This document shows, piece after piece, positions 21,483 through 62,077 of a stretch of 64,000 nt of DNA (the first letter of the stretch is position 1; the number at the start of each line of letters is the position of its first letter). The translations under genes were made by a program, and so were the position numbers. The DNA comes from Deltaproteobacteria bacterium (lineage in GTDB: Bacteria; Myxococcota_A; Polyangia; JAAYKL01), in assembly GCA_016936575.1 (NCBI GenBank), contig JAFGXQ010000013.1, forward strand, positions 2,835 to 66,834. Reading direction: 5' to 3'. The notes under the pieces are model-generated. The model was not told where the DNA came from and made no database searches. It worked only from the letters and a program-made list of their open reading frames with translations.

Positions 21483-21669
21483 GTCAAGTTCAGAAAAGCC
21501 GAATATCAAGGCAACCATTTAAAAACAAAACGACCGATACAAACCGCTTTTAAATCGTTTTCGCATCAAGTACGATGGACAACAACCTTAAATACACAAT
21601 CATGCGCTTTGCCCGACAATTTCATGCCCGGCAAAAAAATGCATGGGACGCCCTACTGAAAGGAACAAA

Positions 21670-40303: not shown

Positions 40304-40412
40304 AATCAACATCCTTTGTTTTGCATGAATTATGGTGATGCCATCATACAACAAATGAAAAATGAAAATAAAAAAAATGCACTCGGTAGGTGAGAGAAGA
40401 AATGACGTTCAG

Positions 40413-45707: not shown

Positions 45708-45791
45708 GCCAGGGTGGCGGAATTGGTAGACGCAAGGGACTTAAAATCCCTCGAGCTATTGCTTGTACGGGTTCGATTCCCGTCCCTGGTA
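45708..45791 (+). tRNA. tRNA-Leu (anticodon UAA)
   Basis: Cloverleaf by eye. Acceptor GCCAGGG/CCCTGGT plus discriminator A. Anticodon stem AGGGA/TCCCT with loop CTTAAAA (TAA). Long variable arm. T-arm ACGGG-TTCGATT-CCCGT. CCA not encoded. Confidence 0.85.
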
Positions 45792-45939
45792 CTATTCTTC
45801 ATCTATCGCAATAACTTGACTTCATGGAAATAGAGGTATAAACGGATAAATAATTCTATCTGGCTCGAAAAATTTTAATCGCACTGATAGAATTAAAAAC
45901 GACAGCACGAACTGCTATTTTTCATATTCGGAGTGAGCC

Positions 45940-46503
45940 ATGAGCACCAACGACCTATTTACAGCCCCTCAAGTGGCAAAAATCTGTTCTACTGACTTAA
46001 AAACCATTCACAACTGGGTGAACCGGGGAGAAATCAAATTTTTCAGAACCCCTGGCAGACACCTTCGTTTTCGCCGCCAGGACATCCTGGAATTCCTGAT
46101 GAAATTCGGATATCCGATTCCAGAAGGATTCGCCCCGACCCGACACAAAGCAATCGTTATCGACCCCACGGAAGATACCGCTAATTCCATTGCCAATGCG
46201 CTTTCAGACGAAATGGACGTAAAAACCTTTACCGACCATTTTGATGCACTGCTGCAAATCGGAAAAGACAAACCGTCCTTAGTATTGATTAACTGCGACT
46301 CCAATCCGGAAATGCTGAAAGTGGTACAGAATATTTCCAAAAACGAGGCGGACTTGCCCATCGTGGCATACGGCAGCGACGGCTTCTCTGTTGATGAACC
46401 GAAACGCGCCGGCGCATTAGAAAGCATTGCCACCACGGACGTGAATTCAGTGAAAGACAAAGTTTCGTCAATCGTTCGCAACACCCTGAAAACCGCGGTG
46501 TAA
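45940..46503 (+). CDS. HTH (excisionase/MerR-type DNA-binding) plus receiver-like domain protein
   Basis: 187 aa. N-terminal FTAPQVAKICSTDLKTIHNWVNRGEIKFFRTPGRHLRF resembles excisionase-family HTH. C-terminal about 120 aa resembles a CheY-like receiver (KAIVIDP...VLINCD). Confidence 0.55.
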   Translation: MSTNDLFTAPQVAKICSTDLKTIHNWVNRGEIKFFRTPGRHLRFRRQDILEFLMKFGYPIPEGFAPTRHKAIVIDPTEDTANSIANALSDEMDVKTFTDHFDALLQIGKDKPSLVLINCDSNPEMLKVVQNISKNEADLPIVAYGSDGFSVDEPKRAGALESIATTDVNSVKDKVSSIVRNTLKTAV

Positions 46504-46535
46504 CAGAGCATCCACATAGATTACAGACTGTCGCC

Positions 46536-48029
46536 CTATTCCAGTTCAAAGTTGTGTCGCTGGAAGACTTCGCGCAGCCAATCTTTATCGGATTCAATCT
46601 GTTCCACCGCAGAATCAAACGCCATATTCTCGGTATCCGGTTTATAGAAAAACCGCATCATGGTACCTGACATCTGCTCCATGTCCTTTGCCGTCGGCGA
46701 AAACACGTACACAGATATATTCGGATTCGCTTCTTCGGCTTTGGTAATCATTTCAGCAAATCGGGTGCGTATCATCGATTTCACCGATTGAACCGTATTG
46801 AACAGACCGCCTTTTCCGCTCACATACCCCGCTTCCATGGTCTGTACAGGACGCAAAGGGTCAATACAAATGATTAGCGTAGCACCGCTCGACACCGCCA
46901 CATCAATATCGATGGTCCGCGTAAATATCCCGTCCACAAAGTAACGGTCCCCAATTTTTTCAGGATTGTAATACGGTGTCATCGCGCAAGACGCGCGCAC
47001 CGCTGATGAAATCGGCACATCATCGGCACCTGGGGCGCCGAAAGAAATGTGACTGCCTTCATCCTGATCGGTCACGCCGATAAACAGCTTTTTCTCAAGC
47101 TCGCGAAAATCATTTCTCATGCCGGGTTTGGTGTATTCCCGTTGCAGATATTCCCGCAGTTTATCGCCGGAAAACATCGCCGTCGGCGTGACGCGCATGG
47201 CACTGTCAAACGGGCGGGTAATCCAACGTCCCTTCCAGAAATCCCCTACCGAAGACATAATTCGTTTAGCCAGCTCGCTCACGTTCGGATCGAACAACAT
47301 GCTTCTGGTAATAGGATCCACCCGACTGGGTCTGCCGTATAAAGTATTTGCAATTTCATAAGGTTTTACGCCGTTCGCCAAAAAAGCACTCAGCACCGCA
47401 CCCGCAGAAATACCACTGAATATATCAAAATCCGTTAATGACGCACCGCGCAACCGGGAATCCAATGCGCGCAGTACCCCAATCTCCCAAAACATCCCTT
47501 CTATCCCCCCCCCTGCCAAACAAAGCGCCACCTTTCCAGGCGCAGTCGGTCTGGAAATCCGATATGCGGCCGTCAGTACATCTCCCATGTGTTTGGGTCC
47601 CACCAGAACACCGCCCAGCTGCAGTGTTCCCAGGCCGTAGGCATGGTAAGCCGTATGCTCGTTGTCGGGCAGCAGAATCACGACAGACGCCCGTGACGGG
47701 GCCCTTCTGCGCATCGCGCCGGTCAGCAGCTCTGGGAGCACCTGTCCCGCCAAAGACGCCTCCACACCCTGGGCCAAATCGTCATGCCGATGGTCGATGA
47801 TAATCGCGCCCATGGGACGGGATTTCGCGATTTCAAGACATTCTGTCGTATTGGTGAGAAGATGACAAATCAACGACTTTTTGTCCTTCAATGTCAACTC
47901 CACCCCGTTTTTAAAGTCCGCATCCTGATTGGAGTCACTGACAAACGGCGTCAATTCTTTTTGAATGAATTCATACTGATCCTGGGTCACAAAAATGGAA
48001 ATCCGAGCAGACGGTGTCTTTTCTGTCAT
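46536..48029 (-). CDS. patatin-like phospholipase family protein with N-terminal extension
   Basis: 497 aa. Oxyanion motif LCLAGGGIEGMF. Nucleophile elbow GISAGA (GxSxG). Catalytic Asp region DGG/DGI. About 160 aa N-terminal domain of unknown function. Confidence 0.8.
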   Translation of the reverse strand: MTEKTPSARISIFVTQDQYEFIQKELTPFVSDSNQDADFKNGVELTLKDKKSLICHLLTNTTECLEIAKSRPMGAIIIDHRHDDLAQGVEASLAGQVLPELLTGAMRRRAPSRASVVILLPDNEHTAYHAYGLGTLQLGGVLVGPKHMGDVLTAAYRISRPTAPGKVALCLAGGGIEGMFWEIGVLRALDSRLRGASLTDFDIFSGISAGAVLSAFLANGVKPYEIANTLYGRPSRVDPITRSMLFDPNVSELAKRIMSSVGDFWKGRWITRPFDSAMRVTPTAMFSGDKLREYLQREYTKPGMRNDFRELEKKLFIGVTDQDEGSHISFGAPGADDVPISSAVRASCAMTPYYNPEKIGDRYFVDGIFTRTIDIDVAVSSGATLIICIDPLRPVQTMEAGYVSGKGGLFNTVQSVKSMIRTRFAEMITKAEEANPNISVYVFSPTAKDMEQMSGTMMRFFYKPDTENMAFDSAVEQIESDKDWLREVFQRHNFELE

Positions 48030-48212
48030 TCAATACCCTTTTCCCGGCTCATTTGGACGTTTCGCCCCACAATCATCCCGGTTGCGCACGTCCAATTTCA
48101 GTTTTGCGCTAAAATTATGTTTTTTTTCAATCTATGTATTTCAAATACGCTTTGTTTTTATATATAACTTGTGTTACGTTATTCAAAATTATTCAGCAAA
48201 ATGGGAGGACGC

Positions 48213-48452
48213 ATGTCTGAAGATAAAGTATTGTACAGCTTCAAACGCAATCCAACAGAAGAAGTTCGCGCCGGCGTAAAAGAGTTCAAAGGAAAAGCGT
48301 ATATCGATATTCGCATTTACTACATGGATGACCAGGGCGAGTGGAAACCCACCAAAAAAGGCGTATCTTTGGCAACCGATTTTCTGCCTGAGTTGAAGGA
48401 AGCCGTTACCGCCATCGATGCCGAACTGACAAAAATGGAAGCCGCCGAATAG
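48213..48452 (+). CDS. PC4/YdbC-like ssDNA-binding transcriptional coactivator family protein
   Basis: ORF 48171..48452. Probable start MSEDKVLYS. FKGKAYIDIRIYY...KPTKKGVSL matches the bacterial PC4 (YdbC) fold signature. Confidence 0.55.
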   Translation: MSEDKVLYSFKRNPTEEVRAGVKEFKGKAYIDIRIYYMDDQGEWKPTKKGVSLATDFLPELKEAVTAIDAELTKMEAAE

Positions 48453-48725
48453 CCGGTTCTGTTTTTCGTCGCCCATTTTTCTATGATATCGTCGCTTGTG
48501 AACGATTGTGATTTCGTTGCATTTTGTTAATGCATTTGTGAAACAGTTTCATTTTTGTCATCATTTTGACTGAGTTTCGAGTGCACAGACGCACGCCGCG
48601 TATCATTTCGAAATGTTCAGTAAAATAATTTTTAAATAATACAATTTATGCTGGTCACAGCGCGCAGTTTTCCATATACCCGCATTGTAAAACGCGGTCT
48701 TCAACTTTTCGGATGAGGAGGAATA

Positions 48726-51710
48726 ATGCCCCATCGCATAGCAATCAAACTGAAAAGCGGATTCAACGATGCCAACGGCACTCGAACGGCATCTGAAATT
48801 GAGAGTTATCTTGCATATCACGTGGATAGCGTTCGCGTGGTCGATGTATACACCGTCGATGCAGAATTGGGCAACGACTCACTAACCCGACTCGCCGAAG
48901 AACTGTGTGATTCGGTGATTCAAGAGTGGACAGTGGACAGCCCTGCTGCGGTGGAATTCGACTGGCTGATTGAAGTGGCATTTCGCCCAGGCGTGACCGA
49001 CAACGTGGGCCGTACGGCGACCGAATCAGCGCGCATGGTGCTTCCCGACGAATTTACCCGGGAACACGCCATTTATACCTCTCGGCAGTACCTGATTCGC
49101 GGAGAACTGTCTGAGGTACAAGTTGAAAATATCGCAACCGGACTGCTGTGCAATACGCTCATCCAACGCCATCGCATCGCATCCAGAGACGCGTTTGATT
49201 ACGACAAGGGAATGCCGGTAGAGGTTCCCAAAGTTACCGAAACGGCCACCCCCGAGGCTAGAACCATCAGTCTCGATTTATCGGACGAAGCCCTGGCGGC
49301 ACTCAGCAGAGAAATGACCCTCGCCCTGTCGCTGGATGAAATGAAAGTGATTCAGGCGTATTACCAACGCGAAGACATTCAGGCGCTGCGCAACGAAAAA
49401 GGCTTGCCGCCGGAACCTACCGACGTGGAAATCGAAGTGTTTGCTCAGACCTGGTCCGAGCACTGCAAGCATAAAATCTTCAGCGCCCTTATCGAATATC
49501 GCGACGGCGACAACGTGGAGAAAATATCGTCACTGTACAAAACATATATACAGGGAACCACCAAAGAAGTTCGCGCACTTCTGGGCGACGACGACTACTG
49601 TCTGTCTGTATTCAAGGATAACGCAGGCGTGTGGAAATTCACCGACGACTGGAATCTGGTCTTCAAAGTGGAAACCCATAACTCTCCCTCCGCGCTGGAT
49701 CCATACGGCGGTGCGCTCACCGGTATCGTCGGTGTGAATCGCGATCCCCACGGCACCGGTAAGGGTTCCAGATTGTTCTGCAACACCGACGTTTTCTGCC
49801 TGGCCGACCCGTTTTACAATGAAGAATTGCCGCCTCGGCTGCTTCACCCCCGTCGTGTGATGGAGGGCGTCCGAGAAGGCGTGGAGCACGGCGGCAATAA
49901 AAGCGGCATTCCCACGGTAAACGGTTCACTGGTATTCGATGAGCGATTCCTGGGCAAACCGCTGGTCTTCTGCGGAACCGGCGGCATCATGCCCAAAGAA
50001 ATCAACGGCGAGCCGTCTCACGAAAAGCTCGCATATCCCGGCGATCGAATCATCATGGTAGGCGGTCGCATCGGCAAAGACGGTATCCACGGCGCGACGT
50101 TCTCATCAGAGGAGCTGCACGAAGGGTCACCGGCAACCGCGGTTCAAATTGGCGACCCGATCACTCAGAAACGAATGACCGATTTCCTGCTTCGCGCCCG
50201 CGATGAGAGCCTGATGACCTGCCTGACCGATAACGGTGCGGGCGGGCTGTCCTCGTCGATAGGCGAAATGGCGGAAGGCCCCGGCGGCGCAAAAGTGGAA
50301 CTGGCCCACGCACCGCTGAAATACCAGGGGCTCCAGCCGTGGGAAATTTTTATTTCTGAAGCACAGGAACGAATGACCGCCGCTGTATCACCGGAAAAAC
50401 TGGACCGTTTCATCAGCCTGGCCAATGAAATGGGCGTTGAGGCGACGGACTTGGGCGAGTACACCGCCGGGCCGTACCTGGAGCTGTTTTACAACGGCGC
50501 CCCGGTCGCACTGTTCGATATGGAGTTTCTGCACAAAGGTCTTCCGCAAATGACCCTTCAGGCAGCGTGGACGGCTCCAAGCGAAGACGTCGCGAATATT
50601 CCATCCAAAGAAAACCTGAATGACGACCTGGCGAAAATGCTCGGCCGCCTGGACATCTGCTCCAAGGAGTACTGGGTTCGTCAATACGACCACGAAGTTC
50701 AGGGGGGGGCAGTCGTTAAACCCCTGTGCGGCGCGGAACACGACGGTCCCTCTGATGCGGCGGTGGTACGCCCCATCCTGGATTCCATGAAGGGCGTTGC
50801 TGTATCACACGGAATCTGCCCCAGATATTCCGACCTCGATGCCTATCACATGAGCGCCTGTGCGGTAGACGAAGCCATGCGCAACCTCGTATGCGTGGGC
50901 GCCAATCCCGACAAAGTGGCTGCGCTTGATAATTTCTGCTGGTGCGACCCGGTGACATCGCCCAGCAATCCGGACGGCGACTATAAACTGGCCCAACTGG
51001 TTCGTTCGGCCAAAGCGCTGAAGGATGTATGCATTGCCTACCGGATGCCGCTGGTGTCGGGCAAAGACAGCATGAAGAACGACTACTCCATCGGTGACAC
51101 CAAAATCTCCATTCCGCCAACGCTTCTCGTGACCGCCGTCGGCGAAGTCGAAGATTCAAATTGTGCGGTAACCATGGATGCGAAGAATGTCGACGACCTT
51201 GTGTACCTGGTGGGCGACACCTACGACGACATGGGCAAAAGCCACTATCTTGACATGTTGGGTATCGCGGGAGGGAATGTTCCCAAACTGCGCGCCCCCG
51301 AGCAGACCATACAAAATTATCGCTGGCTTCACCGGGCCATGAAAAGCAAATTGGTCGCTTCCTGCCACGATCTCTCAGATGGCGGTCTGGCGGTCGCCGC
51401 GGCAGAGACCGCATTTTCGGGAAATCTGGGGCTGAACATTGATTTATCGAAGGTACCGGGCGCACCCACGTCGAACGAAACAGCACTGTTTTCAGAAACC
51501 CCCGGTCGACTGTTGGTCACCGTTCCCGCGACTTCGAAGGATGCTTTCGAAATCATTATGGGGAACGCCGCCGCGTGCATCGGTGAAGTCGTGGAGGAGC
51601 CGAAACTGACCGTTCTCGGTCAAGGCGGGCAAACAGTAATTGAGTCTGATATTTCTACATTAAAAGAGTCGTGGCAGAAGACTCTTCGGTTCAGCGAGGT
51701 TTCCAAATGA
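48726..51710 (+). CDS. purL: phosphoribosylformylglycinamidine synthase, PurS-PurL fusion
   Basis: 994 aa. N-terminal about 90 aa PurS-like domain, then the FGAM synthetase PurL domains (AIR synthase-related N and C domains). No glutaminase domain; that function is on the downstream purQ. Confidence 0.9.
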   Translation: MPHRIAIKLKSGFNDANGTRTASEIESYLAYHVDSVRVVDVYTVDAELGNDSLTRLAEELCDSVIQEWTVDSPAAVEFDWLIEVAFRPGVTDNVGRTATESARMVLPDEFTREHAIYTSRQYLIRGELSEVQVENIATGLLCNTLIQRHRIASRDAFDYDKGMPVEVPKVTETATPEARTISLDLSDEALAALSREMTLALSLDEMKVIQAYYQREDIQALRNEKGLPPEPTDVEIEVFAQTWSEHCKHKIFSALIEYRDGDNVEKISSLYKTYIQGTTKEVRALLGDDDYCLSVFKDNAGVWKFTDDWNLVFKVETHNSPSALDPYGGALTGIVGVNRDPHGTGKGSRLFCNTDVFCLADPFYNEELPPRLLHPRRVMEGVREGVEHGGNKSGIPTVNGSLVFDERFLGKPLVFCGTGGIMPKEINGEPSHEKLAYPGDRIIMVGGRIGKDGIHGATFSSEELHEGSPATAVQIGDPITQKRMTDFLLRARDESLMTCLTDNGAGGLSSSIGEMAEGPGGAKVELAHAPLKYQGLQPWEIFISEAQERMTAAVSPEKLDRFISLANEMGVEATDLGEYTAGPYLELFYNGAPVALFDMEFLHKGLPQMTLQAAWTAPSEDVANIPSKENLNDDLAKMLGRLDICSKEYWVRQYDHEVQGGAVVKPLCGAEHDGPSDAAVVRPILDSMKGVAVSHGICPRYSDLDAYHMSACAVDEAMRNLVCVGANPDKVAALDNFCWCDPVTSPSNPDGDYKLAQLVRSAKALKDVCIAYRMPLVSGKDSMKNDYSIGDTKISIPPTLLVTAVGEVEDSNCAVTMDAKNVDDLVYLVGDTYDDMGKSHYLDMLGIAGGNVPKLRAPEQTIQNYRWLHRAMKSKLVASCHDLSDGGLAVAAAETAFSGNLGLNIDLSKVPGAPTSNETALFSETPGRLLVTVPATSKDAFEIIMGNAAACIGEVVEEPKLTVLGQGGQTVIESDISTLKESWQKTLRFSEVSK

Positions 51711-52519
51711 GTAAAGTACGCGCAATCGTTCTGGCTGGAAACGGCATCAATTGTGAAAGAGAAACCGCCTACGCCTGCAAGCTGGGCGGCGCGGATGAAG
51801 TCGATATTGTGTATCTGTGGGATTTGGCAGCAGGCGAGGCATCGCTGGACGGCTATCAGTTTTTATGCTGCCCGGGAGGATTTCTAGATGGGGACGACCT
51901 GGGCAGCGCCAAGGCGTCCACCATTCGGCTTCGCCACACTGAAATCAACGGACACTCACTGGTGGAACAAATCCAGGGTCATGTTGAAAAAGGTGGACTT
52001 GTGATGGGAATCTGCAATGGATTCCAGCTGATGATTAAGCTGGGACTGCTCCCGGCGCTCGACAATCAGCTCGGAGTTCCCCAGGCCACACTCACCTGGA
52101 ACAACTCCAGTCGGTTTGAAGACCGTTGGGTGACGCTCAAGGCAGACCCGGCGTCTACTTGCATCTTCACCAAGGGAATAGACACGTTGGAGCTTCCGGT
52201 ACGCCACGGCGAAGGACAAATTGTTGCGCCGGAAGAAACCATGATCGCAGTAAGGGAACGGCATCAGGGGCCGCTTGCGTACATTAATCCGGAAACAGGA
52301 GAGGCGACAGAGACCTACCCGCTCAATCCGAACGGCACCCGGTTCGGTATTGCGGCACTATCTGACACCACCGGGCGCTTGTTTGGAATGATGCCCCATC
52401 CGGAAGCGTTCCTGCATCGCACCAACCATCCCCGCTGGACGCGAGAGAATCTCCCGGAAGAGGGTGCCGGCCTGCAGATTTTCAAAAACGCCGTAAACTA
52501 CATCCGCGAAAACATGTAG
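51707..52519 (+). CDS. purQ: phosphoribosylformylglycinamidine synthase glutamine amidotransferase subunit
   Basis: ORF 51671..52519. Start MSKVRAIVLAGNGINCE overlaps the purL stop (ATGA). Class I GATase Cys (GICNGFQLM) and His (HPE) present. Confidence 0.85.
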   Translation: MSKVRAIVLAGNGINCERETAYACKLGGADEVDIVYLWDLAAGEASLDGYQFLCCPGGFLDGDDLGSAKASTIRLRHTEINGHSLVEQIQGHVEKGGLVMGICNGFQLMIKLGLLPALDNQLGVPQATLTWNNSSRFEDRWVTLKADPASTCIFTKGIDTLELPVRHGEGQIVAPEETMIAVRERHQGPLAYINPETGEATETYPLNPNGTRFGIAALSDTTGRLFGMMPHPEAFLHRTNHPRWTRENLPEEGAGLQIFKNAVNYIRENM

Positions 52520-52533
52520 TCACTGTTCCCTCC

Positions 52534-52552
52534 CTTGTTTTATCGAAACAAG
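52534..52552 (+). terminator. hairpin CTTGTTT-TATCG-AAACAAG downstream of purQ
   Basis: Seen directly. 7-bp stem with no strong U-tract, so a weak terminator candidate. Confidence 0.3.
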
Positions 52553-52787
52553 TTCATTCGCAGAAGCAAAAGCGTTGCTAGAATCGCACTACATAACACG
52601 ATAAATATTCAACTTTAATAAGAAATATCAAAAACGGGCACAGGTGCGTTTTTTAACTCAACTGCAACGAAAAAAGCAGATTTCAGACATTTTTTTTTCC
52701 AGAAAAAAGAAACCATTGGCCCAATAGTTTTAACGAGACCGAAACATTAATCATTGGGGCAAGCCCCTTTGCCCAAGGAGAAGATTT

Positions 52788-53810
52788 ATGAAAAAACTAC
52801 TCATCCTTCTTTTAAGCCTCCTGGCCCTGGTTGCATTCAGCTGCAGCGACTCAGGATCATCGGGAGAAAGCGATGGAGATGCGGATTCCGACTCAGATGC
52901 GGATTCGGATTCCGACACAGACTCAGATTCGGATTCGGATACGGATTCTGACTCAGACACCGACTCGGATACGGACACCGACGCGGACACCGACGCGGAC
53001 ACTGACACTGACACCGACGCAGACACTGATGCCGATACCGACGCCGACACCGACACCGACACTGACGCGGATACGGATTCCGACACAGATTCAGATACCG
53101 ACACCGATGCCGATTGTGCCTATAACTGCGCCGGAAGCGAACAGGCGTGTGAAAATGGGTGGGGTGTCGAAGCCGGTAGCGTAGTGGATGGCGACTGCGT
53201 GGTTGTCGGCGGCCCCAATGACGGCGAAGACGGTTTCTGCTGCATGCCTGCCGGTGCAGACGGCGATACCGATAGCGACACAGACTCGGATACCGATGCC
53301 GATACCGATACCGACGCCGATACCGATGCCGATACCGACGCCGACACAGACTCAGATGCCGACTGTGCATATGATTGTGCCGGTAGTGAGATGGCGTGTG
53401 AAAATGGATGGGGTGTCGAAGCGGGTAGCGTAGTGGATGGCGACTGCGTCGTTGTCGGCGGTCCAAATGACGGTGAGGACGGTTTCTGTTGTATGCCGGC
53501 CGGTGCAGACGGCGACACCGATAGCGACACCGATTCGGACACCGACTCAGACACAGACGCCGACACTGACGCCGACACTGACGCCGACACTGACGCGGAT
53601 ACCGACGCCGACACCGATTCAGATGCGGATTGTACATCCTGTCACGACCTTCCTCCAGGTGGCCGTCCTCACGACAATACACATAATGAATTCTCGTGTA
53701 ATGATCCCGACTGCCACGGCGGTGTGGTGAGCGCTGACGGCTCCACAATCGTCGATGACAGCCTCCATATGGACGGCTCAAGCAACGCGGCATGTAACAA
53801 CTGCCACTAA
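52788..53810 (+). CDS. acidic-repeat lipoprotein with two duplicated Cys-rich modules and C-terminal paired-CxxCH (putative c-type heme-binding) module
   Basis: 340 aa. MKKLLILLLSLLALVAFSCSDSG lipobox. Three DSD/DTD/DAD repeat tracts. Two near-identical about 60 aa six-Cys modules. C-terminus CTSCHDLPPGG...CNDPDCHGG...CNNCH. Confidence 0.65.
   Translation: MKKLLILLLSLLALVAFSCSDSGSSGESDGDADSDSDADSDSDTDSDSDSDTDSDSDTDSDTDTDADTDADTDTDTDADTDADTDADTDTDTDADTDSDTDSDTDTDADCAYNCAGSEQACENGWGVEAGSVVDGDCVVVGGPNDGEDGFCCMPAGADGDTDSDTDSDTDADTDTDADTDADTDADTDSDADCAYDCAGSEMACENGWGVEAGSVVDGDCVVVGGPNDGEDGFCCMPAGADGDTDSDTDSDTDSDTDADTDADTDADTDADTDADTDSDADCTSCHDLPPGGRPHDNTHNEFSCNDPDCHGGVVSADGSTIVDDSLHMDGSSNAACNNCH
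53110..53610. repeat. tandem intragenic duplication (two about 250-bp units, about 85-90% identical)
   Basis: Seen directly. Each unit encodes DCAY(N/D)CAGSE(Q/M)ACENGWGVEAGSVVDGDCVVVGGPNDGEDGFCCMPAGADGDTDSD plus an acidic repeat. Confidence 0.6.
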
Positions 53811-53990
53811 ATCCCCCCTACTTCGTTACTCTCTGCACCCCCTGAAAATTTTGTTCTAACTGAGCGCCGTTCGGAATAAATCCAGTCACGAATAGTTACT
53901 CCCTCTTTTTTTTTTCACAAAAACGCGATTTGTCTCCCATTACACATAGAAGAACTCGAAGTTTTTTTTCACACACACAAGGAGAAGATT

Positions 53991-54499
53991 TTGAAAAAAC
54001 TACTCATCCTTCTTTTCAGCCTGCTGACCCTGGTTGCGCTGAGTTGCAGTGATTCAGGAACAACAGGCGGTGGCGATGGAGACACAGACGGTGATGCCGA
54101 CTCAGACAGTGACGGTGACGGAGACGCAGACAGCGATACCGATTCTGACACTGATAGTGATACCGACTCTGATACCGACTCTGATACCGACAGCGACACA
54201 GACGCTGATACCGATTCGGATTCAGACCCAGTCTCATGTGATACATGCCACGGAAATCCACCCGGCGGCAGCCCCCCCCCCACAACCGGTCTGTCCATCT
54301 GAGCTTCGGCTGCAACAACCAGAACAACCACGGAGATATGATCGACGCGGCGGGAACCGTGATTCTGGACGATACTCTCCACCAGAACGGAACCGTCGGC
54401 ACCACCTGCGGCTCAGGCGGGACCGGCTGCCACCGATTTCAATTTCGTTTACCCCGCGCCGTTTTTCCATTCGCATTTCTGACAATCACGTATATTTGA
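53991..54499 (+). pseudogene. paralog of the 52788 lipoprotein interrupted by a frameshift at a C10 homopolymer tract (54272..54281)
   Basis: Frame A (53991..54302) encodes lipobox, DSD stalk and CDTCHGNPPGG, then terminates. Frame B (54245..54499) continues with PPPHNRSVHLSFGCNN...DDTLHQNG...GTGCH, homologous to the paralog tail (RPHDNTHNEFSCND...DDSLHMDG...CNNCH). Adding 1 C (C11) or removing 2 (C8) would restore a single frame. Confidence 0.5.
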
Positions 54500-54573
54500 G
54501 CTGCTTTGGTCGCATAAATGCACCATTATACTTTGTTCTGCGGGGCTTTTTGCAAACGAAACATCACCCGCAA

Positions 54574-56397
54574 ATGGAAAACAACATGAATAATTTAATA
54601 AAAATCAATATTGTCGTCGGTTTTGTCTTTTTCACAACTAGTTGCATTATGCCGCCCCGGGGCGTGGAAACGCCTCCGATCAAGCCGCTTCCGGACATTG
54701 CGGAACACACAGTGCGTGTGAATCAGGTGGGCTATTTTCCGAATCGCAAAAAAATCGCCGCCTACCGGAGCGACTCTCAGACACCGCTTTCGTGGCAACT
54801 GTTCGACAACAAACAGAAAAAAATCGCTGAAGGCAAAACAACCCCTATCGGGCTCGATGACGACTCCGGGGAGCATGTCCATCTTATCGACTTTTCAACA
54901 ACACAGGTGGAAGGCACCGGTTTCACATTGCGCGTCGGAAATGAAAAATCCGTACCGTTTGCCATTTCATCAAAACTCTATGAGGGTCTTCGACGGGATG
55001 CCGTGCGCTATTTTTATATGAACCGCAGCGGTATTCCGCTTGAGATGCCGTACGTGGAAGATCCATCGGCAGAGCGGGACGCCGGCCACCTCAGCGACAA
55101 AAGTGTGCGGTGTGAAACCGGACAAAAATGCGACTACCGCAAAGATGTTTCCGGAGGGTGGTACGACGCCGGGGATTACGGGAAATACGTGGTGAACGGT
55201 GGTATCAGTGTTTGGATGCTGATGCATATTTACGAGTTTCTGTATGTGAACCGAACCCCGCATACCCAGCCGAAAAACCTGAATATTCCGGAAAGCACCA
55301 ATGATGTACCCGATATTCTGGATGAAGCGCGCTACGAGATGGAATGGATGCTGAAGATGCAGGTGACCGACAAGGAACAGGAATTCTACGGCATGGTACA
55401 TCACCGTGTTCGAAATTCTGAATACACCGCCATGGGGAAGGCGCCCCCGGAGGTAAACGTGGATCCGCCTCGTTATCTTCGAGACGTGGCAACCAGCGCG
55501 ACCCTCAATCTTGCGGCCACCGGTGCGCTTTGCGCCAGAGTCTTCAAACCGTTCGATGATGCATTTGCACAGAAATGCCTGGACGCCGCCGAACTGGCAT
55601 GGACCGCTGCCAGAATGCACCCATCCGAGCGTGCGGTAGGCGTCGGCTTCGTTCCGTACCAGAATCCCGATGTATCGGACGATTATTTCTGGGCCTCAGC
55701 GGAGCTGTGGGTCGCCACCGGAAAAACCGCCTACTACAACTTCATTCTTCAATCTCCCTACTATGAAAAATTCACCCATCGTGCCGGCGGCAGTACCTCG
55801 GCATTCAACTGGGCGGACACCGATGGTCTGGGCGCTGTTGCGCTGGCCACCTGCAGTAGGCCGGAAAAACCGGAGTTGGTCGAAAAGAAACAGCAGCAGC
55901 TCATTGCATTTGCAGATAGCCTGCTCGCGCTGATGGAAAAACAGGGGTATCGATTTCCGCTGGACAAGCGAACATATCCGTGGGGGTCGAATTCCTTCAT
56001 CGTAAACAACGCGGTGGTGCTCGCGGTGGCATACCGATTAACCAGCGAAGATAAATACCTGGACGGCGCCATCGTCGCGGTCGACTACATTCTTGGCCGC
56101 AATCCCCTCGACTTTTCGTATGTCAGCGGTTACGGCACCCTGGCGATGCAGTTTCCGCATCATCGATTTTTCGCACCGTCTTACAACAACAAACTGCCGT
56201 TCATTCCACCGGGAACCCTGGCGGGCGGCCCCAATACCAATCTGCAGGACAGCACCTCCCGCAGCTTTCGCGCAGGGTGTCCGCCGGCAAAATGTTATGT
56301 GGATCATATCGAAGCATACGCCACCAACGAAGTTGCCATCAACTGGAATGCCGCGTTGGCCTGGATAGCCATCTACCTCGACGAAACCGCCCGTTGA
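54574..56397 (+). CDS. glycoside hydrolase family 9 endoglucanase with N-terminal Ig-like (CelD_N) domain, lipoprotein
   Basis: Start MENNMNNLIKINIVVGFVFFTTSC (lipobox). GH9 signature GGWYDAGDYGKY. Catalytic region NEVAINWNA at the C-terminus. The 5' part of ORF 54049..56397 is read-through of upstream repeat DNA. Confidence 0.85.
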   Translation: MENNMNNLIKINIVVGFVFFTTSCIMPPRGVETPPIKPLPDIAEHTVRVNQVGYFPNRKKIAAYRSDSQTPLSWQLFDNKQKKIAEGKTTPIGLDDDSGEHVHLIDFSTTQVEGTGFTLRVGNEKSVPFAISSKLYEGLRRDAVRYFYMNRSGIPLEMPYVEDPSAERDAGHLSDKSVRCETGQKCDYRKDVSGGWYDAGDYGKYVVNGGISVWMLMHIYEFLYVNRTPHTQPKNLNIPESTNDVPDILDEARYEMEWMLKMQVTDKEQEFYGMVHHRVRNSEYTAMGKAPPEVNVDPPRYLRDVATSATLNLAATGALCARVFKPFDDAFAQKCLDAAELAWTAARMHPSERAVGVGFVPYQNPDVSDDYFWASAELWVATGKTAYYNFILQSPYYEKFTHRAGGSTSAFNWADTDGLGAVALATCSRPEKPELVEKKQQQLIAFADSLLALMEKQGYRFPLDKRTYPWGSNSFIVNNAVVLAVAYRLTSEDKYLDGAIVAVDYILGRNPLDFSYVSGYGTLAMQFPHHRFFAPSYNNKLPFIPPGTLAGGPNTNLQDSTSRSFRAGCPPAKCYVDHIEAYATNEVAINWNAALAWIAIYLDETAR

Positions 56398-56520: not shown

Positions 56521-57207
56521 ATGGGGGGCAATATGACACAGATTTCGGATATATGTGACCGGTATACGCACGCGGTTTTCAACACAGACCAGGATACGGC
56601 GCAAGATACCATTTACCAGGCGCTGAATGAAGGACTACTGGCCGAAGAACTGGTCTTCAATGTTATTTTGCCGTCTCTGGAAAACATGCTCGAAACGTTG
56701 GTTCAGAACGACAACGCAACGTTGTCGCAACATTTTATCGCCGCCAAGGTATCGAGCGCAATGGTCGAAATGTTGCTTCCCAAATTTTCTGGGACCGCCC
56801 ACGCAAACGGAGTTGTGGTTATCGGCACCGCTCGGGGTGACTTTCACGGGCTTGGTAAAAAAATCGTTTCGGGCTGTCTGACCGCCAACCTGTTTACCGT
56901 TTATGACGTGGGGCTCAACGTGCAACCGGAGCGGTTCGTACAGGAGGCGCTGCAAAAAAACGCCTCTGTCATCGCGGTTTCGTCAATGATGATGCACACC
57001 GCAATCGGCGATGACGGGCCAAAAAGAATAAAAAAACTACTGCAGGACCGGCAGCTGACCGACCGTATCAAACTGATCGTCGGAGGCGCACCGTATCGAT
57101 TCGACGACAAGCTGTACCGCGATGTGAATGCCGATGCCACGGCATTGGATGCACTTTCTTCGGTGGCGGTATTCAAGCACCTGGTTCAGGAGGTGCGTCA
57201 TGCCTGA
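56521..57207 (+). CDS. cobalamin (B12)-binding corrinoid protein (MtaC/MtbC-like: B12-binding_2 helical cap plus Rossmann B12-binding domain)
   Basis: 228 aa. DxHxxG motif in GDFHGLGKK followed by S..LS-type and GG motifs (SSMMMHT, VGGAP). Start may be the internal MTQIS. Confidence 0.75.
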   Translation: MGGNMTQISDICDRYTHAVFNTDQDTAQDTIYQALNEGLLAEELVFNVILPSLENMLETLVQNDNATLSQHFIAAKVSSAMVEMLLPKFSGTAHANGVVVIGTARGDFHGLGKKIVSGCLTANLFTVYDVGLNVQPERFVQEALQKNASVIAVSSMMMHTAIGDDGPKRIKKLLQDRQLTDRIKLIVGGAPYRFDDKLYRDVNADATALDALSSVAVFKHLVQEVRHA

Positions 57208-58237
57208 TTCGATGAGCCTCTTTGGAAAATTGATGAACGGAGAGCTTCCCAGCCGGGTTCCGGTGGCGCTGAATCTCTTCGACCAGGGCCAGAAAGAACT
57301 ACGCCTCACCAGCGAACAGTACTATAGCCGTGCGGAAAATGTGGTCTCCGGACAGCTTGAACTGCGAAAAAAATACGGCCATGATGTGGTGTGGGGAACC
57401 CACTATGTCGCCCGCCAGGCGGAGATTCTCGGTTCCCGCCGTACCATTTTTCCAACCAACGGCCCCCCGAACGTGGGCGATATGGTGATAAAAACACACA
57501 AGGACATCGAGACACTGCAAATTCCGGACGATGTGACAGAACATCCGTCATTCACCATTCAACTCGACACCATTCGCATGCTCAAGCGTGAACTGAACGG
57601 CAGCGCACCGGTATGCGCATTTCAAACCGGCACATTCACTCTCCCTTCCATTCTAATGGGCATTCATGCGTGGATGGACTTATTTTTAACCGGCCCCCCA
57701 TCGCTGGTAGACGAGCTACTGACAAAATGCTCGGAATATACCATAAAAACTTTTTCGGCGCTTAAAGAAGCCGGCGCGACGCTGGTAGCCTACGCGAATC
57801 CGATGGTGTCCACCGACTTTTTCTCTCTGCCGCAAATTACAGAACGCTGTCTGCCGTGGGTTAAGCGGGATATGACGCGCATGGGCACAGACGGTCTGGT
57901 TTATTTTTGCGGTGGTTCTCGCATCAACGGCGTGCTTCCCGAAATACTGAAACGCACCACCATCGGTGCATTCCTCGTGCACCCGCAAGACGATGTGGCA
58001 CACGCCAAAGCATTGGTCGGCGGCAAGGCACTGGTCGCCGGAGCGATCAATGATATTCAGCTCATCCGATGTACACCGGAAGAAGCACGTCAGAGCACAA
58101 AAGAGATAATCGAAAAAGGCGCGCCTGGCGGAGGGTTTATTTTAAGCTCCCTCGTGATGCCGTTTCAAATTCCAACTCAGAATATACATGCGGTGGTCGA
58201 TGCGGCACATCAATACGGCGCCTACGAAGCGACCTGA
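57200..58237 (+). CDS. uroporphyrinogen decarboxylase (URO-D) family protein, MtaA/CmuA-like corrinoid methyltransferase
   Basis: ORF 57128..58237. Probable start MPDSMS overlapping the corrinoid protein gene end by 8 nt. TIM-barrel URO-D-like sequence, lacking the uroporphyrinogen-specific context. Confidence 0.75.
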   Translation: MPDSMSLFGKLMNGELPSRVPVALNLFDQGQKELRLTSEQYYSRAENVVSGQLELRKKYGHDVVWGTHYVARQAEILGSRRTIFPTNGPPNVGDMVIKTHKDIETLQIPDDVTEHPSFTIQLDTIRMLKRELNGSAPVCAFQTGTFTLPSILMGIHAWMDLFLTGPPSLVDELLTKCSEYTIKTFSALKEAGATLVAYANPMVSTDFFSLPQITERCLPWVKRDMTRMGTDGLVYFCGGSRINGVLPEILKRTTIGAFLVHPQDDVAHAKALVGGKALVAGAINDIQLIRCTPEEARQSTKEIIEKGAPGGGFILSSLVMPFQIPTQNIHAVVDAAHQYGAYEAT

Positions 58238-58241
58238 TGCG

Positions 58242-58850
58242 ATGAACCACTCTCGCGCCACTCGAATGATCAGCTGCAGCATTCTGAAAAAGGAGGTGCT
58301 GCATGTTCTGAAACGCCGTGAAGGTGCAGTCGATATTACATTCCTGCCGTCGTCTCTTCACAACGACCTCGACAAACTTTCCGCGCGACTAAACGACGCA
58401 ATGGGACGCTTCAACGCGCCCACAGTGGTACTCTACGGCACTTGTCATCCTCAGATGGACAAATTCATCTCTCACCACAACGCCCAAAGGATTCCCTGTC
58501 AAAACTGTATTGAACTCCTGCTGGGAGCTGAACAGTATACCCAATACCTCGCTGACGGCGCGTTTTTCCTGTTGGAGGAATGGGCGCATTCATGGGAAAA
58601 AAACATCGCCGCTGCACTGGGAGCGAATATCGCTGCAAGAAACGCTCTTCTCCGCGATTCGCATCAATACCTGTTATGCGTGAACACACCCTGCTCCCGA
58701 GATTTTTCAGTTCAGGCGAAAAACATCGCGAAACAAACTGATCTGCCGATTCGGTCCCTTGATGTAGAACTCAATTATCTGGAGAACGTCTTTGACCAAA
58801 TACTGATGGTCGGTGACCGTTCTTCCAAAGGAGTAATGCGTAATGAATGA
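58242..58850 (+). CDS. DUF1638-like protein
   Basis: ORF 58188..58850. Probable start MNHSRATRMIS. Cys-containing motifs (GTCHPQ, CQNC). This family is recurrently encoded next to corrinoid protein/MtaA-like pairs (established knowledge, from memory). Confidence 0.5.
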   Translation: MNHSRATRMISCSILKKEVLHVLKRREGAVDITFLPSSLHNDLDKLSARLNDAMGRFNAPTVVLYGTCHPQMDKFISHHNAQRIPCQNCIELLLGAEQYTQYLADGAFFLLEEWAHSWEKNIAAALGANIAARNALLRDSHQYLLCVNTPCSRDFSVQAKNIAKQTDLPIRSLDVELNYLENVFDQILMVGDRSSKGVMRNE

Positions 58851-60603
58851 ATGTACCAATTGCAGCAAGCTCCAAAAAGAGATTGAGTATCAGAAGCAGC
58901 GAATTGACAGGATCGCCAAAGAAAAATCTCATCTGCAACTGGTTGCCGACATTCTTTCCGATCTGGCGAAACTGCACGGAGTAAAAGCCATTGCCAATCA
59001 CACCCTCGCCTTTCTGATGAATTCCATCGGCGGCACCAATTTATCCTTCTACTACACAACCGATAAGTCGTGGCAGATGATTGACGTATACGGCAATGAA
59101 AAAGAAATGACATATCCGGAAGACCCTGACGTCTTGAGAGCAATCGACGAAAAAAAATTTCACGGAATACAAACCCAGGGCGAAGAAAAAGGCTATTTCA
59201 CATTCAACGTGGGAAAAAGCCGATTTGAAAAGTGGGTGTTTCCGCTTTGTGTCGAAGAAGAGGTATTCGGTGCATTCGTCGTGGATGGACTGCTCATTCA
59301 TCTTCATGACGCCATTATCGAACAGCTGCATATCATCAGTACGTATATCAGTCTGGTTGTCAAAAACGAATTTCTGACAGAGTCGCGACTGAAAAAGGCC
59401 AACGATGCACTGATACAAAAAAACATTGCGCTGATGAATGAAATTGACCAGCGCACAAGACTGGAGCGGGAGCGAGAAAAGCTGTATCAGGAACTACAGC
59501 AGGCCCAGAAAATGGAAGCGATTGGTACGCTGGCCGGCGGCATCGCGCACGACTTCAACAATCTGCTCGGCGCTATCATCGGATACACCGACCTGGCGAT
59601 TGACAACTGCACCGACGATGAATCTCACTTCAATCTCGATCAGGTGATGCAGGCAGCGGAACGGGCAAGAGACCTGGTGAAGCAGATTCTAACTTTCAGC
59701 CGCAAACAGGACACCAAGAACGCACCGATATACATCGCACCGGTGGTGAAAGAAGTAATGAAATTATTGCGCGCGACCATTCCCACCACCATCATCATAC
59801 AGGTAAGTATCGACAAGCAGTGCGGCGCAATATTGGGAAATGTGACTCAGCTTCACCAGATTATAATGAATCTATGCACCAATGCGACGCATGCGATGGA
59901 GGAAAATGGCGGAACCCTGCGTGTATCCCTCCGCCCCATTGAACCGCAAAACAAAAAAGGTGAAAAATCACTTCAGCTACAGATAAGCGATACCGGCTGC
60001 GGGATTCCCCAAGATGTTCTGCCTCGAATTTTTGAACCGTATTTTACCACCAAAGGAATCGGTAAAGGAACTGGAATGGGTCTCGCTGTGGTTCATGGAA
60101 TCGTATTGTCGATGAACGGAACCATCACTGTCTCATCTGAACTCGGAAAAGGAACCACCATCGAATGCACCTTCCCCATCGTCGATGGGGACGTCCGCGA
60201 CAGCGAACCACCCGTGGAACAGCACCCGACCTTCACCGGTGTTGCCATGATCGTGGATGACGAATCTTCCATTGCAGATCTTGCACAACAAATGCTGACC
60301 AAAATGGGATTCACCTGTGAAACATTTCAAAACGGGATGAATGCCCTGGACGCGTTCCGCGCTGATCCGAAAAAATACACTCTGGTACTGACGGACCAGA
60401 CCATGCCCGGCATCACCGGTATGCAGTTGTCTGAAAAACTGTTTTCCATAAAAAACGTACCGGTTCTGATTTCATCGGGATACAGCACCTCTATCGACGA
60501 AGAAAAAGTCGCCGCACAACCGAACATGGAATTTCTGGCCAAGCCGTATACCTACAAGAAACTAGAAAAGGTAATCTCCGACCTGCTGAGCGACTCTCCC
60601 TGA
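58843..60603 (+). CDS. cytoplasmic hybrid sensor histidine kinase (GAF-like N-domain, HisKA, HATPase_c, C-terminal receiver)
   Basis: 586 aa. Start overlaps the previous gene by 8 nt. H-box [12 protein letters not shown]. HATPase DTGCGIP / GTGMGLAV. Receiver VAMIVDDE...[13 protein letters not shown]. No TM segments. Confidence 0.8.
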
Positions 60604-60727: not shown

Positions 60728-62077
60728 ATGGAACGAAACGATTTTCTAATACCCCGATTTTTTACTATCATAACATTATTATTATCGATGATAACAGTCA
60801 TCGCCTGCTCTGTTGAGGAGGGGCAGATAGATAAGGCTTCCGATGCGGACTCAGACACGGATACTGACTCTAACTCTGACTCTGATACAGATACAGACTC
60901 TGATTCTGATAGTGATGCAGATGCGGATACAGACACCGACGCAGACAGCGACACCGACTCTGACGCAGACAGCGACACCGACTCTGACTCTGACAGCGAC
61001 ACCGACTCTGACTCTGACAGCGACACCGACTCTGACTCTGACTCTGACTCTGATACAGATACAGACTCTGATTCTGATAGTGATGCGGATGCGGATACAG
61101 ACACCGACGCAGACGCAGACACCGACGCAGACACCGATACAGATACCGACGCTGACACCGATACAGATACCGATGCAGATACCGACGCTGACACCGATAC
61201 GGATACCGACGCTGACACCGACTCGGACGCCGATGCAGACACCGACACGGACTCTGATAGTGATGCGGATGCGGATACAGACTCAGATACGGACTCGGAC
61301 ACTGACTCTGATACTACGATCAATTGCGAGACCATCGCCCATCCGGGCAGCGTCGGTCCGCTGGACGTAAATAGTTACAGCGCAGGGTTACGTGACGGAC
61401 CGGACTACGGTTCGCAGACCATGCATGCACCGGTCGGAGATGGGGAATTCCCTGCTATCGCAATTGTACCCGGTTACATGTCGTACGAATCATCCATTTC
61501 GAGCTGGGGACCCTATTTCGCATCCCACGGCATTGCAACGCTGACTATCGGCACTAACAGCATCATGGATCAACCGCCCGCCCGCTCCGCTGCGCTGCTT
61601 GACGCTATCGACACCATTCGTGCAGAAAATGAGCGCCCGGACAGCCCGTTGTATCAACAAATTGATCTCACAAGGCTCGGCGTCATGGGGTGGTCAATGG
61701 GCGGAGGCGGTACGCTCATTACCGTCAACAGTCACCCCGAGCTCAAAGCTGCCATTACCCTATGTGCGTGGAACCCGGGTCAAACCTATCCAAACAATTC
61801 TGTCCCTACATTATTATTCGCCGGGACGGCCGATACCCTCGCGGGAGGGCAGTCTCAGGGGTTCTACACCAGCATTCCCGATACCACCCCAAAGATGCTT
61901 TTCGAAGTGGCCGGCGCCGACCATTTCTTTGCCAATTCTCCAACCGGCGCAAACAATCAGACCGGCTTGTACGGCACAGCCTGGTTAAAAGTGTTTCTTG
62001 CCGGAGATGAATGCTATCGTCCATTTCTGCTGGCCCCCCCCGGCGGCACATCGGATTTCAGAACGAACGTGGAATAA
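60728..62077 (+). CDS. acidic-repeat lipoprotein with C-terminal cutinase/PETase-like polyesterase domain (alpha/beta hydrolase)
   Basis: 449 aa. Lipobox ITVIAC. About 165 aa DSD/DTD/DAD stalk. Catalytic domain with GWSMGGGG nucleophile motif, Asp in GTADTLA and His in GADHFFAN, plus AWNPGQT. These closely resemble the Thermobifida cutinase / Ideonella PETase family as recalled. Confidence 0.75.
60836..61328. repeat. GAY-WCN repeat encoding poly(Asp-Ser/Thr/Ala) stalk
   Basis: Seen directly. Generates artefactual ORFs 60670..61335(-) and 60843..61370(+). Confidence 0.8.

What the first reader, a model, noticed from the sequence alone, without database searches (positions are those of the whole stretch)
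54262..54292. C10 homopolymer tract causing a frameshift in a stalk lipoprotein paralog: candidate phase-variation switch
The tract at 54272..54281 (ten C) splits gene 53991 into two frames. Downstream of the tract the alternative frame stays homologous to the tail of paralog 52788 (CxxCH-containing module). Adding one C (C11) or removing two (C8) would give one continuous gene. Poly-C/G tracts at exactly such positions are classical slipped-strand phase-variation switches for surface proteins. Alternatively this is a homopolymer sequencing error.
Basis: seen in the sequence. Interest (0 to 1): 0.5.

Follow-up and report, generated by a model that had tools for sequence, protein, structure and literature searches.

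The report
Poly-C frameshift in cytochrome lipoprotein paralog
A run of ten C bases really does break the reading frame of a small multi-haem cytochrome lipoprotein gene in an uncultured spring-dwelling myxobacterium, but the gene looks more like a recently disabled duplicate than a proven on/off switch.

Summary
C10 lies at 54272-54281 and is the longest G/C run in the window. It ends gene 53991 after 103 codons. The shifted frame (54281-54436) continues the family module, and C8 or C11 restores one ORF.

The gene is a lipoprotein with an acidic D[ST] linker and a small multi-haem c-type cytochrome module, from a "Deltaproteobacteria bacterium" MAG, probably a Zodletone-spring myxobacterium.

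A consensus error is unlikely. Two separate per-run assemblies match the window over 6.5 kb, C10 included. C9, G8 and C8 runs elsewhere are in frame.

Phase variation is not shown. No tract-length variant was found, and no orthologous locus could be retrieved. The tract is lineage-specific: 11 homologous modules have S-P-H (about C5) at that site.

The gene carries other lesions:
- a TTG start where the paralog has ATG
- loss of the second Cys of the CX4CH haem motif
- loss of the family stop codon

My estimates:
- recently inactivated, decaying paralog with an inherently slippery and reversible tract: about 0.5
- selected contingency switch: about 0.3
- sequencing error: about 0.1

Only raw-read tract counts can decide. 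One side observation: the T10 tract upstream is T11 in both other assemblies.

The parts
53906..53915 (+). Poly-T tract in the 180-nt spacer upstream of the gene. It is T10 in the window and T11 in both independent assemblies.
   Evidence: This is the only difference in 6.5 kb between the window and L001/L002. No sigma-70-like promoter was called here.
53979..53993 (+). Ribosome-binding site AAGGAG (53979-53984) and TTG start codon (53991-53993).
   Evidence: Paralog 1 has the same leader with ATG (AAGGAGAAGATTTATG against AAGGAGAAGATTTTG). Homologue P0009 also has ATG.
53991..54047 (+). Lipoprotein signal peptide MKKLLILLFSLLTLVALS|C. The lipobox Cys is at 54045-54047.
   Evidence: The first 91 nt are 82% identical to paralog 1. 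The lipobox pattern was read by eye.
54075..54227 (+). Acidic D[STGA] low-complexity linker (the 'stalk').
   Evidence: The same kind of linker occurs in at least five other secreted proteins or lipoproteins in the window.
54237..54251 (+). First haem-binding motif, CDTCH, in frame with the start codon.
   Evidence: It falls on invariant columns C7, C10 and H11 of the family alignment.
54272..54281 (+). C10 homopolymer, the frameshift site. It encodes S-P-P-P. The extra Pro residues are an insertion relative to all homologues.
54300..54302 (+). TGA that ends the 103-aa product in the C10 state.
54281..54436 (+). Remainder of the cytochrome module in the shifted frame (H..H..CNNQNNH..LHQNG..CX6CH).
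   Evidence: It keeps every column that is invariant across the 12-sequence alignment, and GC3 is 0.79.
54314..54331 (+). 9-nt tandem AACAACCAG|AACAACCAC. It puts Asn where 11 of 12 modules have the second Cys of CX4CH.
   Evidence: P0009 has AAC AAC GAA AAT TGC CAC at this position.
54437..54499 (+). A 20-codon read-through plus TGA after the final CH, where paralog 1 and P0009 have TAA. Its composition is intergenic-like.
   Evidence: GC 0.43/0.43/0.33.
52788..53810 (+). Intact paralog 1 (340 aa). It has a lipoprotein signal, D[ST] linkers, two Cys-rich modules, and a C-terminal CxxCH..CX4CH..CxxCH module. It has no C tract at the equivalent site (CGT CCT CAC).

Best explanation
The C10 run is a real DNA-level frameshift in the dominant genotype of this population. 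It lies in a diverged tandem paralog of a small multi-haem c-type cytochrome lipoprotein.

The inferred ancestral sequence at the site was AGC CCx CAC (Ser-Pro-His, about C5). Replication slippage lengthened the run to C10, which is out of frame. Translation from the weak TTG start therefore ends after 103 residues: signal peptide, acidic linker and one CxxCH motif. The other two haem sites are not made.

The gene also has these changes:
- it lacks an ATG start
- it has lost the second Cys of the CX4CH motif through a local 9-nt repeat
- it has lost the family's stop codon

For these reasons I read it as a recently inactivated, decaying duplicate. A C10 run is intrinsically slippage-prone, so rare C11 or C8 revertants must arise. 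I do not think the evidence shows that this reversibility is a selected switch.

Shown: the tract, the frame structure, the homology, the reproducibility in three assemblies, and the lineage-specific nature of the tract. Inferred: the ancestral C5 state, slippage as the mutational route, and relaxed selection.
For: - C10 is identical in the window and in two per-run assemblies, which otherwise match it 100%.
- The controls C9 (patatin gene), G8 (purL) and T9 are identical across assemblies, and C9, G8 and C8 lie in frame in open ORFs.
- The tract-encoded Pro-Pro is an insertion relative to all 11 other modules in alignment A3. The DNA of paralog 1 and of P0009 (AGC CCT CAC) has no run at that site.
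- There are further lesions. The start is TTG where paralog 1 and P0009 have ATG. Asn replaces the nearly invariant Cys37, through a 9-nt tandem. The stop after CH is lost, with read-through into sequence of intergenic-like composition.
- The tract is mid-gene, at codon 95 of 169.
- Another family member in a related MAG is also fragmentary (L084).
- The paralog pair lies just beyond a synteny breakpoint relative to two relatives.
Against: - The post-tract frame is still open for 72 codons, keeps every column that is invariant across the alignment, and has a strong coding GC3 signal. Any inactivation must therefore be recent, or the gene is maintained.
- The CX6CH ending, which looked degenerate, is shared with the intact homologues P0009 and P0017.
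- TTG is a legitimate start codon.
- Growth from about C5 to C10 takes several slippage steps that pass through in-frame lengths. That is what a contingency locus would do.
- The nearby T10/T11 difference shows that homopolymers at this locus may be heterogeneous in the reads.
- Consensus assemblies cannot reveal minority tract lengths.
Confidence: 0.5

Rival explanations
1. This is a genuine slipped-strand contingency (phase-variation) switch. The C tract toggles among C8/C11 (ON, full three-haem-site lipoprotein) and C9/C10 (OFF). The sampled population is mostly OFF. The upstream poly-T tract may add transcriptional tuning.
For: - A 10-nt G/C run is well above the length at which slippage is frequent in known systems (background: PMC1891110, PMC2831843).
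- The ON frame is intact, homologous and coding-like.
- The product is a predicted envelope lipoprotein.
- The tract has expanded by 5 nt from the family state, which implies repeated slippage.
- T10 against T11 between assemblies of the same strain lies 76-85 nt upstream of the start.
Against: - No length variant of the C tract appears in three assemblies from two runs.
- The tract is absent from all homologues and from paralog 1.
- It lies mid-gene rather than near the 5' end.
- The ON product would lack a haem-binding Cys, would carry one or two extra Pro where ten of the other modules have exactly three residues between PP and PH (P0017 has no such motif), and would have a 20-aa read-through tail.
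- The other long G/C runs in the window are in housekeeping or intact genes and are stable, so there is no sign of a contingency-gene repertoire.
Confidence: 0.3
2. This is a sequencing or assembly artefact. The true tract is C11 (or C8) and the gene is intact.
For: - Ten-base homopolymers are near the limit of reliability when libraries are PCR-amplified (Nextera XT if the window belongs to the Zodletone data set).
- The neighbouring T tract is called T10 in the window but T11 in two other assemblies.
- All three assemblies probably derive from the same two libraries.
Against: - C10 is reproduced by different assemblers on two separate runs.
- C9, G8, C8, T9 and T8 runs are concordant or in frame.
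- The platform is probably Illumina, whose homopolymer indel errors are not systematic enough to shift a deep consensus (the link between the window and this study is inferred).
- Even when restored, the gene shows other anomalies.
Confidence: 0.1
3. The gene is recoded. The full-length protein is made from the C10 template by -1 ribosomal frameshifting on C CCC CCC, or by RNA-polymerase slippage that adds a C.
For: - The run offers a perfect X XXY YYZ slippery heptamer.
- A -1 shift gives exactly the C11 product (reasoned).
Against: - No stable structure follows the tract (MFE z-score +0.77 against shuffles).
- The frameshift is not conserved in any homologue.
- In transcriptome-wide data, slippage insertions occurred only in A/T runs, not G/C runs (PMC5574713).
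Confidence: 0.04

Closest known systems
Homopolymeric-tract contingency loci of host-adapted bacteria, for example poly-G/C tracts in Bordetella pertussis tcfA, bapC and the fim promoters (PMC1891110) and in Neisseria hmbR, hpuAB and nalP (PMC3786947, PMC3723659)
   Same: - A long G/C run lies inside the ORF of an envelope protein.
- Changes of +/-1 nt switch between a full-length and a truncated product.
- A second homopolymer lies upstream of the gene.
   Different: - No tract-length polymorphism has been demonstrated here.
- The organism is a free-living anaerobic MAG lineage.
- The tract is mid-gene and is not conserved in paralogs or homologues.
- The gene has extra lesions.
- No repertoire of such loci is visible in the window.
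Listeria monocytogenes inlA 5' poly-A frameshift (Orsi et al. 2010, PMC2831843)
   Same: A frameshift in a homopolymer inactivates a surface protein gene and can revert at high frequency. It sits on the border between 'pseudogene' and 'switch'.
   Different: The inlA tract is A/T and lies at the extreme 5' end, and its reversion was measured experimentally. Here the tract is poly-C at 56% of the ORF, and nothing has been measured.
TIGR01904 CxxxxCH/CxxCH domain c-type cytochromes of Geobacter
   Same: Both have repeated small modules that combine CX4CH and CXXCH haem motifs with conserved His ligands. Eight of 12 family modules give weak hits to this model.
   Different: - Scores are 12-15 bits against a curated cutoff of 27.
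- This family is much shorter (1-3 modules).
- It is lipid-anchored through an acidic linker.
- Each module has an extra leading CxxCH.
Ordinary frameshifted pseudogenes at homopolymers in bacterial genomes
   Same: Both show a fixed out-of-frame run, additional degenerative substitutions, a lineage-specific origin, and an intact paralog next door that can cover the function.
   Different: The downstream frame is unusually well preserved, with no stops in 72 codons and all alignment-invariant residues kept. If this is a pseudogene, it is very young.

Membership tests
Simple-sequence-repeat contingency locus (slipped-strand phase variation) | A hypermutable repeat (homopolymer of about 8 nt or more) within the ORF or promoter | tested here: met
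   C10 at 54272-54281 within the ORF, and T10 at 53906-53915 upstream.
Simple-sequence-repeat contingency locus (slipped-strand phase variation) | Repeat-number changes switch between an intact and a truncated ORF | tested here: met
   In silico, C8 and C11 give 168 and 169 aa. C7, C10 and C13 give 102-104 aa. C9 and C12 enter the third frame.
Simple-sequence-repeat contingency locus (slipped-strand phase variation) | Tract length is polymorphic within a population or among close strains | tested here: inconclusive
   Three consensus assemblies from two runs all give C10. No close strain or ortholog was found. The restored products are not in the protein collection, but neither is the observed 103-aa product, so that result is uninformative.
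Simple-sequence-repeat contingency locus (slipped-strand phase variation) | The repeat is maintained at the same site in orthologs or paralogs | tested here: not met
   It is absent in paralog 1 (CGT CCT CAC) and in P0009 (AGC CCT CAC). It appears as a 2-aa insertion relative to 11 modules.
Simple-sequence-repeat contingency locus (slipped-strand phase variation) | The ON-state gene is otherwise functional | tested here: inconclusive
   It keeps all alignment-invariant columns and a coding GC3 signal. It has a TTG start, lacks the second Cys of CX4CH, and reads through the family stop.
TIGR01904 CxxxxCH/CxxCH domain c-type cytochrome | Score at or above the curated cutoff (27 bits) | tested here: not met
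   12.1 bits for paralog 1, 14.8 bits for the 103-aa ORF, 12.9 bits for the restored tail. The best E-value among 12 modules is 0.0024.
TIGR01904 CxxxxCH/CxxCH domain c-type cytochrome | A CX4CH motif followed by a CXXCH motif, with conserved His ligands | tested here: inconclusive
   Paralog 1 has CNDPDCH ... CNNCH. Paralog 2 has CNNQNNH ... CX6CH. Haem binding has not been tested.
Bacterial lipoprotein (signal peptidase II substrate) | An N-terminal basic and hydrophobic leader ending in a lipobox Cys | tested here: met
   MKKLLILLFSLLTLVALS-C, read from the sequence. The pattern was compared from memory of the PROSITE lipobox rule; no dedicated predictor was run.
Pseudogene (recent, unitary) | A frame-disrupting mutation fixed in the population consensus | tested here: met
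   C10 in the window and in L001 and L002.
Pseudogene (recent, unitary) | Independent additional disabling changes | tested here: inconclusive
   Three candidate lesions are present (TTG start, Cys to Asn, stop loss). None is individually lethal, and there are no in-frame stops.
Pseudogene (recent, unitary) | No expression of a functional product | not testable with these tools
   This needs metatranscriptome or proteome data.
Programmed -1 ribosomal frameshift or transcriptional slippage | A slippery site plus a downstream stimulatory structure, conserved among homologues | tested here: not met
   The heptamer C CCC CCC is present, but there is no structure (z +0.77) and no homologue shares the frameshift. 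G/C runs are not slippage-prone for RNA polymerase (PMC5574713).

The most novel reading that the evidence does not exclude
A free-living, anaerobic, uncultured myxobacterium uses classical slipped-strand phase variation to switch a lipid-anchored multi-haem cytochrome on and off stochastically. A coding poly-C tract does this, perhaps together with the upstream poly-T tract that differs (T10/T11) between assemblies. This would extend contingency-locus logic from host-adapted pathogens to extracellular or periplasmic electron-transfer proteins in an environmental lineage.
Probability: 0.25. Interest if true: 0.5.

Novelty: new member of a known kind. Interest (0 to 1): 0.25.

Why it matters
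If the tract were shown to vary in the population, it would be a rare example of simple-sequence contingency switching outside host-associated bacteria. It would also be unusual in acting on a redox protein rather than an adhesin or antigen. That would bear on how uncultured anaerobes diversify their envelope electron-transfer repertoire.

As it stands, the practical value is modest:
- The locus documents a reproducible, genuine frameshift that annotation pipelines will split or miss.
- It defines a small, undescribed family of acid-tethered multi-haem cytochrome lipoproteins.
- It gives two nearby homopolymers (C10 and T10/T11) that are easy targets for a read-level test.

Tried and rejected
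- **Orthologous loci in related genomes.**
  - A genome-contig scan with the adjacent GH9 protein found nothing closer than 60% identity. That hit has no cytochrome gene upstream.
  - Two relatives found through the PurQ cluster (75-77% nt identity) lose synteny exactly at the purQ stop.
- **Exact DNA pattern.** A pattern spanning the tract with a variable gap found nothing in JGI metagenomes.
- **Profile-based locus search in metagenomes.** It gave no confirmed relative.
- **Word-indexed protein searches.** The restored tail and the paralog-1 domains found nothing. A profile search found only four short family members.
- **Exact look-ups of products.** C8, C11 and C14 restored products and truncated variants were absent from the collection. 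The observed 103-aa product is absent too, so this is uninformative.
- **RNA-level explanations.** There is no structure downstream of the tract and no Rfam family in the region.
- **AlphaFold model of the restored module.** The model was low confidence (pLDDT 62), so I did not use it for fold search. The PDB sequence search gave only weak NrfH and cytochrome c3 similarity.
- **CX6CH ending as decay.** I first read this ending as degenerate, but rejected that because intact homologues share it.
- **Promoter and terminator scan.** Nothing was found around the T tract.

Full report
**Observation.** The window has exactly ten C at 54272-54281. This is the longest G/C homopolymer in the 64 kb. About 0.12 such runs are expected from base composition. 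The ORF starting at TTG 53991 encodes:
- a lipoprotein-type leader (MKKLLILLFSLLTLVALS-C)
- an acidic D[STGA] linker (54075-54227)
- a CDTCH motif (54237-54251)
- GNPPGGSPPP, followed by TTGLSI and a TGA at 54300-54302 (103 aa)

The frame entered at the last C (54281) stays open for 72 codons. It reads HNRSVHLSFGCNNQNNHGDMIDAAGTVILDDTLHQNGTVGTTCGSGGTGCH. This matches the tail of paralog 52788-53810 (E 4e-9). In silico, C8 and C11 give single ORFs of 168 and 169 aa, and C9 and C12 enter the third frame.

**What the gene is.** A full HMMER search with the tail of paralog 1 found 22 proteins. The best hits are short lipoproteins with acidic linkers and one to three copies of a roughly 60-aa module: CxxCH - PPxxxPH - H - CNxxxCHG - LHxxG - C(x2-6)CH. 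These are three haem-binding motifs with three candidate distal His residues, so the module is a small multi-haem c-type cytochrome.

Similarity to the Geobacter CxxxxCH/CxxCH domain model TIGR01904 is weak, at 12-15 bits against a cutoff of 27. Similarity to NrfH and cytochrome c3 in the PDB is marginal. I therefore treat this as an undescribed relative, not a member of those families.

The restored C11 protein aligns across the tract to the intact 128-aa homologue P0009 (53% identity, E 5e-21). In the 12-module alignment it shares all 13 invariant columns. Only the homologous frame shows a coding GC profile (GC3 0.79).

**Organism and data.** The flanking proteins are in NCBI as "MAG: Deltaproteobacteria bacterium" (MBN2344527.1 and MBN2670311.1; contig of 123,597 bp). 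Family member P0017 comes from JAFGWT01, one of six Myxococcota MAGs from the anoxic Zodletone spring. Those were sequenced on Illumina HiSeq 2500 (2x150, Nextera XT) from one sediment and one water sample (bioRxiv 10.1101/2021.07.06.451402). That the window belongs to the same data set is an inference. It rests on the accession series and on the two adjacent SRA runs that carry it.

**Is it an error?** Two per-run Logan assemblies cover the locus: SRR13394436 (L001) and SRR13394437 (L002). They match the window over 6.6 and 6.2 kb with a single difference, and both have C10. A third contig (L003) is 100% identical over 45762-53001, including the C9, G8 and T9 runs. C9 (patatin gene), G8 (purL) and C8 (a lipoprotein hydrolase) are all in frame in open ORFs. 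There is therefore no sign of systematic homopolymer miscalling.

The one discordance is the T tract at 53906-53915. It is T10 in the window and T11 in both Logan contigs. This shows that runs of 10 nt are at the edge of reliability, or are truly heterogeneous. I leave about 0.1 for an artefact.

**Is it a switch?** No direct test was possible. Consensus assemblies hide minority alleles, raw reads are not available here, and no ortholog could be found:
- The species is absent from the genome collection, and the best GH9 hit (60% identity) has no cytochrome gene upstream.
- Two relatives at 75-77% nt identity lose synteny exactly at the purQ stop.
- Metagenome and protein searches found nothing closer than 53% identity.

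The indirect evidence cuts both ways.

In favour of a switch:
- A C10 run is inherently slippage-prone (background: PMC1891110, PMC2831843).
- The product is an envelope lipoprotein.
- The downstream frame is very well preserved.
- The run has grown by 5 nt from the family state.

Against a selected switch:
- The tract is lineage-specific. Ten of the other modules have exactly three residues between PP and PH, and P0017 lacks that motif. At the DNA level paralog 1 has CGT CCT CAC and P0009 has AGC CCT CAC. Even the in-frame C8 and C11 states would insert one or two Pro residues into this conserved spacing.
- The tract sits at codon 95 of 169, not near the 5' end.
- The gene has three further anomalies.
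  - The start is TTG where the near-identical leader of paralog 1, and P0009, have ATG.
  - Asn replaces the second Cys of CX4CH, created by a 9-nt tandem AACAACCAG|AACAACCAC at 54314-54331.
  - The stop that directly follows CH in paralog 1 and P0009 is lost. This gives a 20-residue tail of intergenic-like composition.
- The window shows no repertoire of similar tracts in surface genes.
- Another family member in a related MAG is a pair of N-terminally truncated fragments lying head to head (L084). This suggests the family decays readily.

**Recoding.** A -1 ribosomal shift on C CCC CCC would give the C11 product. However, no structure follows the site (z +0.77) and the frameshift is not conserved in any homologue. 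RNA-polymerase slippage insertions were found only in A/T runs in transcriptome-wide data (PMC5574713). I give this about 0.04.

**Verdict.** This is a real frameshift at an expanded poly-C run in a diverged cytochrome-lipoprotein paralog. It is most likely a young pseudogene, or at least a gene that is OFF in the dominant genotype of both samples (about 0.5). A true contingency switch remains a live alternative (about 0.3). Per-read tract-length counts from the two SRA runs, calibrated on the C9, G8 and T9 controls in the same window, would decide between them.

This is a new instance of a known kind of feature, of modest interest unless the heterogeneity is demonstrated.

Noticed in passing
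window 53906-53915: The poly-T tract 76-85 nt upstream of the TTG start is T10 in the window and T11 in both independent per-run assemblies. It is the only difference in about 6.5 kb. It could be real population heterogeneity in a promoter-proximal tract, or homopolymer stutter.
   Followed up: partly
window 54283-56397: The third reading frame after the tract (the C9 or C12 state) has no stop for about 100 codons and runs straight into the downstream GH9 cellulase ORF. The chance of this is about 0.03-0.05 from off-frame statistics. The linking peptide is Arg-rich and looks non-coding, so this is probably coincidence.
   Followed up: partly
window 54314-54331: A 9-nt tandem AACAACCAG|AACAACCAC turns the family's CNxxxCH haem motif into CNNQNNH. 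It looks like a single local template-switch or duplication event that removed a haem-binding Cys.
   Followed up: partly
window 53010-53507 (within paralog 1): Two tandem 249-nt units (79% identical) each encode a D[ST] linker plus a Cys-rich module of about 48 aa (DCAYNCAGSE.ACENGWGVEAGSVVDGDCVVVGGPNDGEDGFCCMPAG). No homologue was detectable in the word-indexed protein search.
   Followed up: partly
window 21643-23751, 39566-40354 (-), 52788-53810, 53991-54302, 60728-62077, 62189-63619: At least six secreted proteins or lipoproteins in 64 kb carry long Asp-Ser/Thr/Ala repeat linkers between the leader and the catalytic domain (a protease-like protein, esterase-like proteins, cytochromes). 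This is a striking genome-wide habit. These repeats also break the short-read contigs.
   Followed up: no
L084 1245-1630 (JAFGWT010000245.1, Zodletone Myxococcota MAG): A 77-aa family member without a signal peptide (+ strand, 1397-1630) lies head to head with a partial module on the minus strand (about 1390 down to 1245, CNDPNCHGD...CGAIAVCHGE*). These are two N-terminally truncated fragments, suggesting an inversion or decay at another family locus.
   Followed up: partly
window 52519-52790; L085, L086: Two relatives (75-77% nt identity) share the order HTH_17 - patatin - PC4 - purL - purQ. Synteny ends exactly at the purQ stop. L085 has a 1258-aa TPR/transglutaminase gene there, and the L086 contig ends shortly after with a different minus-strand ORF. 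Neither has the cytochrome pair and GH9, so the locus sits at a rearrangement or insertion boundary.
   Followed up: partly
window 45708-46503: A tRNA gene (45708-45791) lies directly upstream of a gene with an HTH_17 (excisionase-type) domain. The arrangement is conserved in relative L086, so it is probably not a recent integration.
   Followed up: no
window 56533-58900: Downstream of GH9 lies a cluster of a B12-binding protein, a URO-D-like methyltransferase and DUF1638. This is a corrinoid methyltransferase-type set, unrelated to the finding.
   Followed up: no
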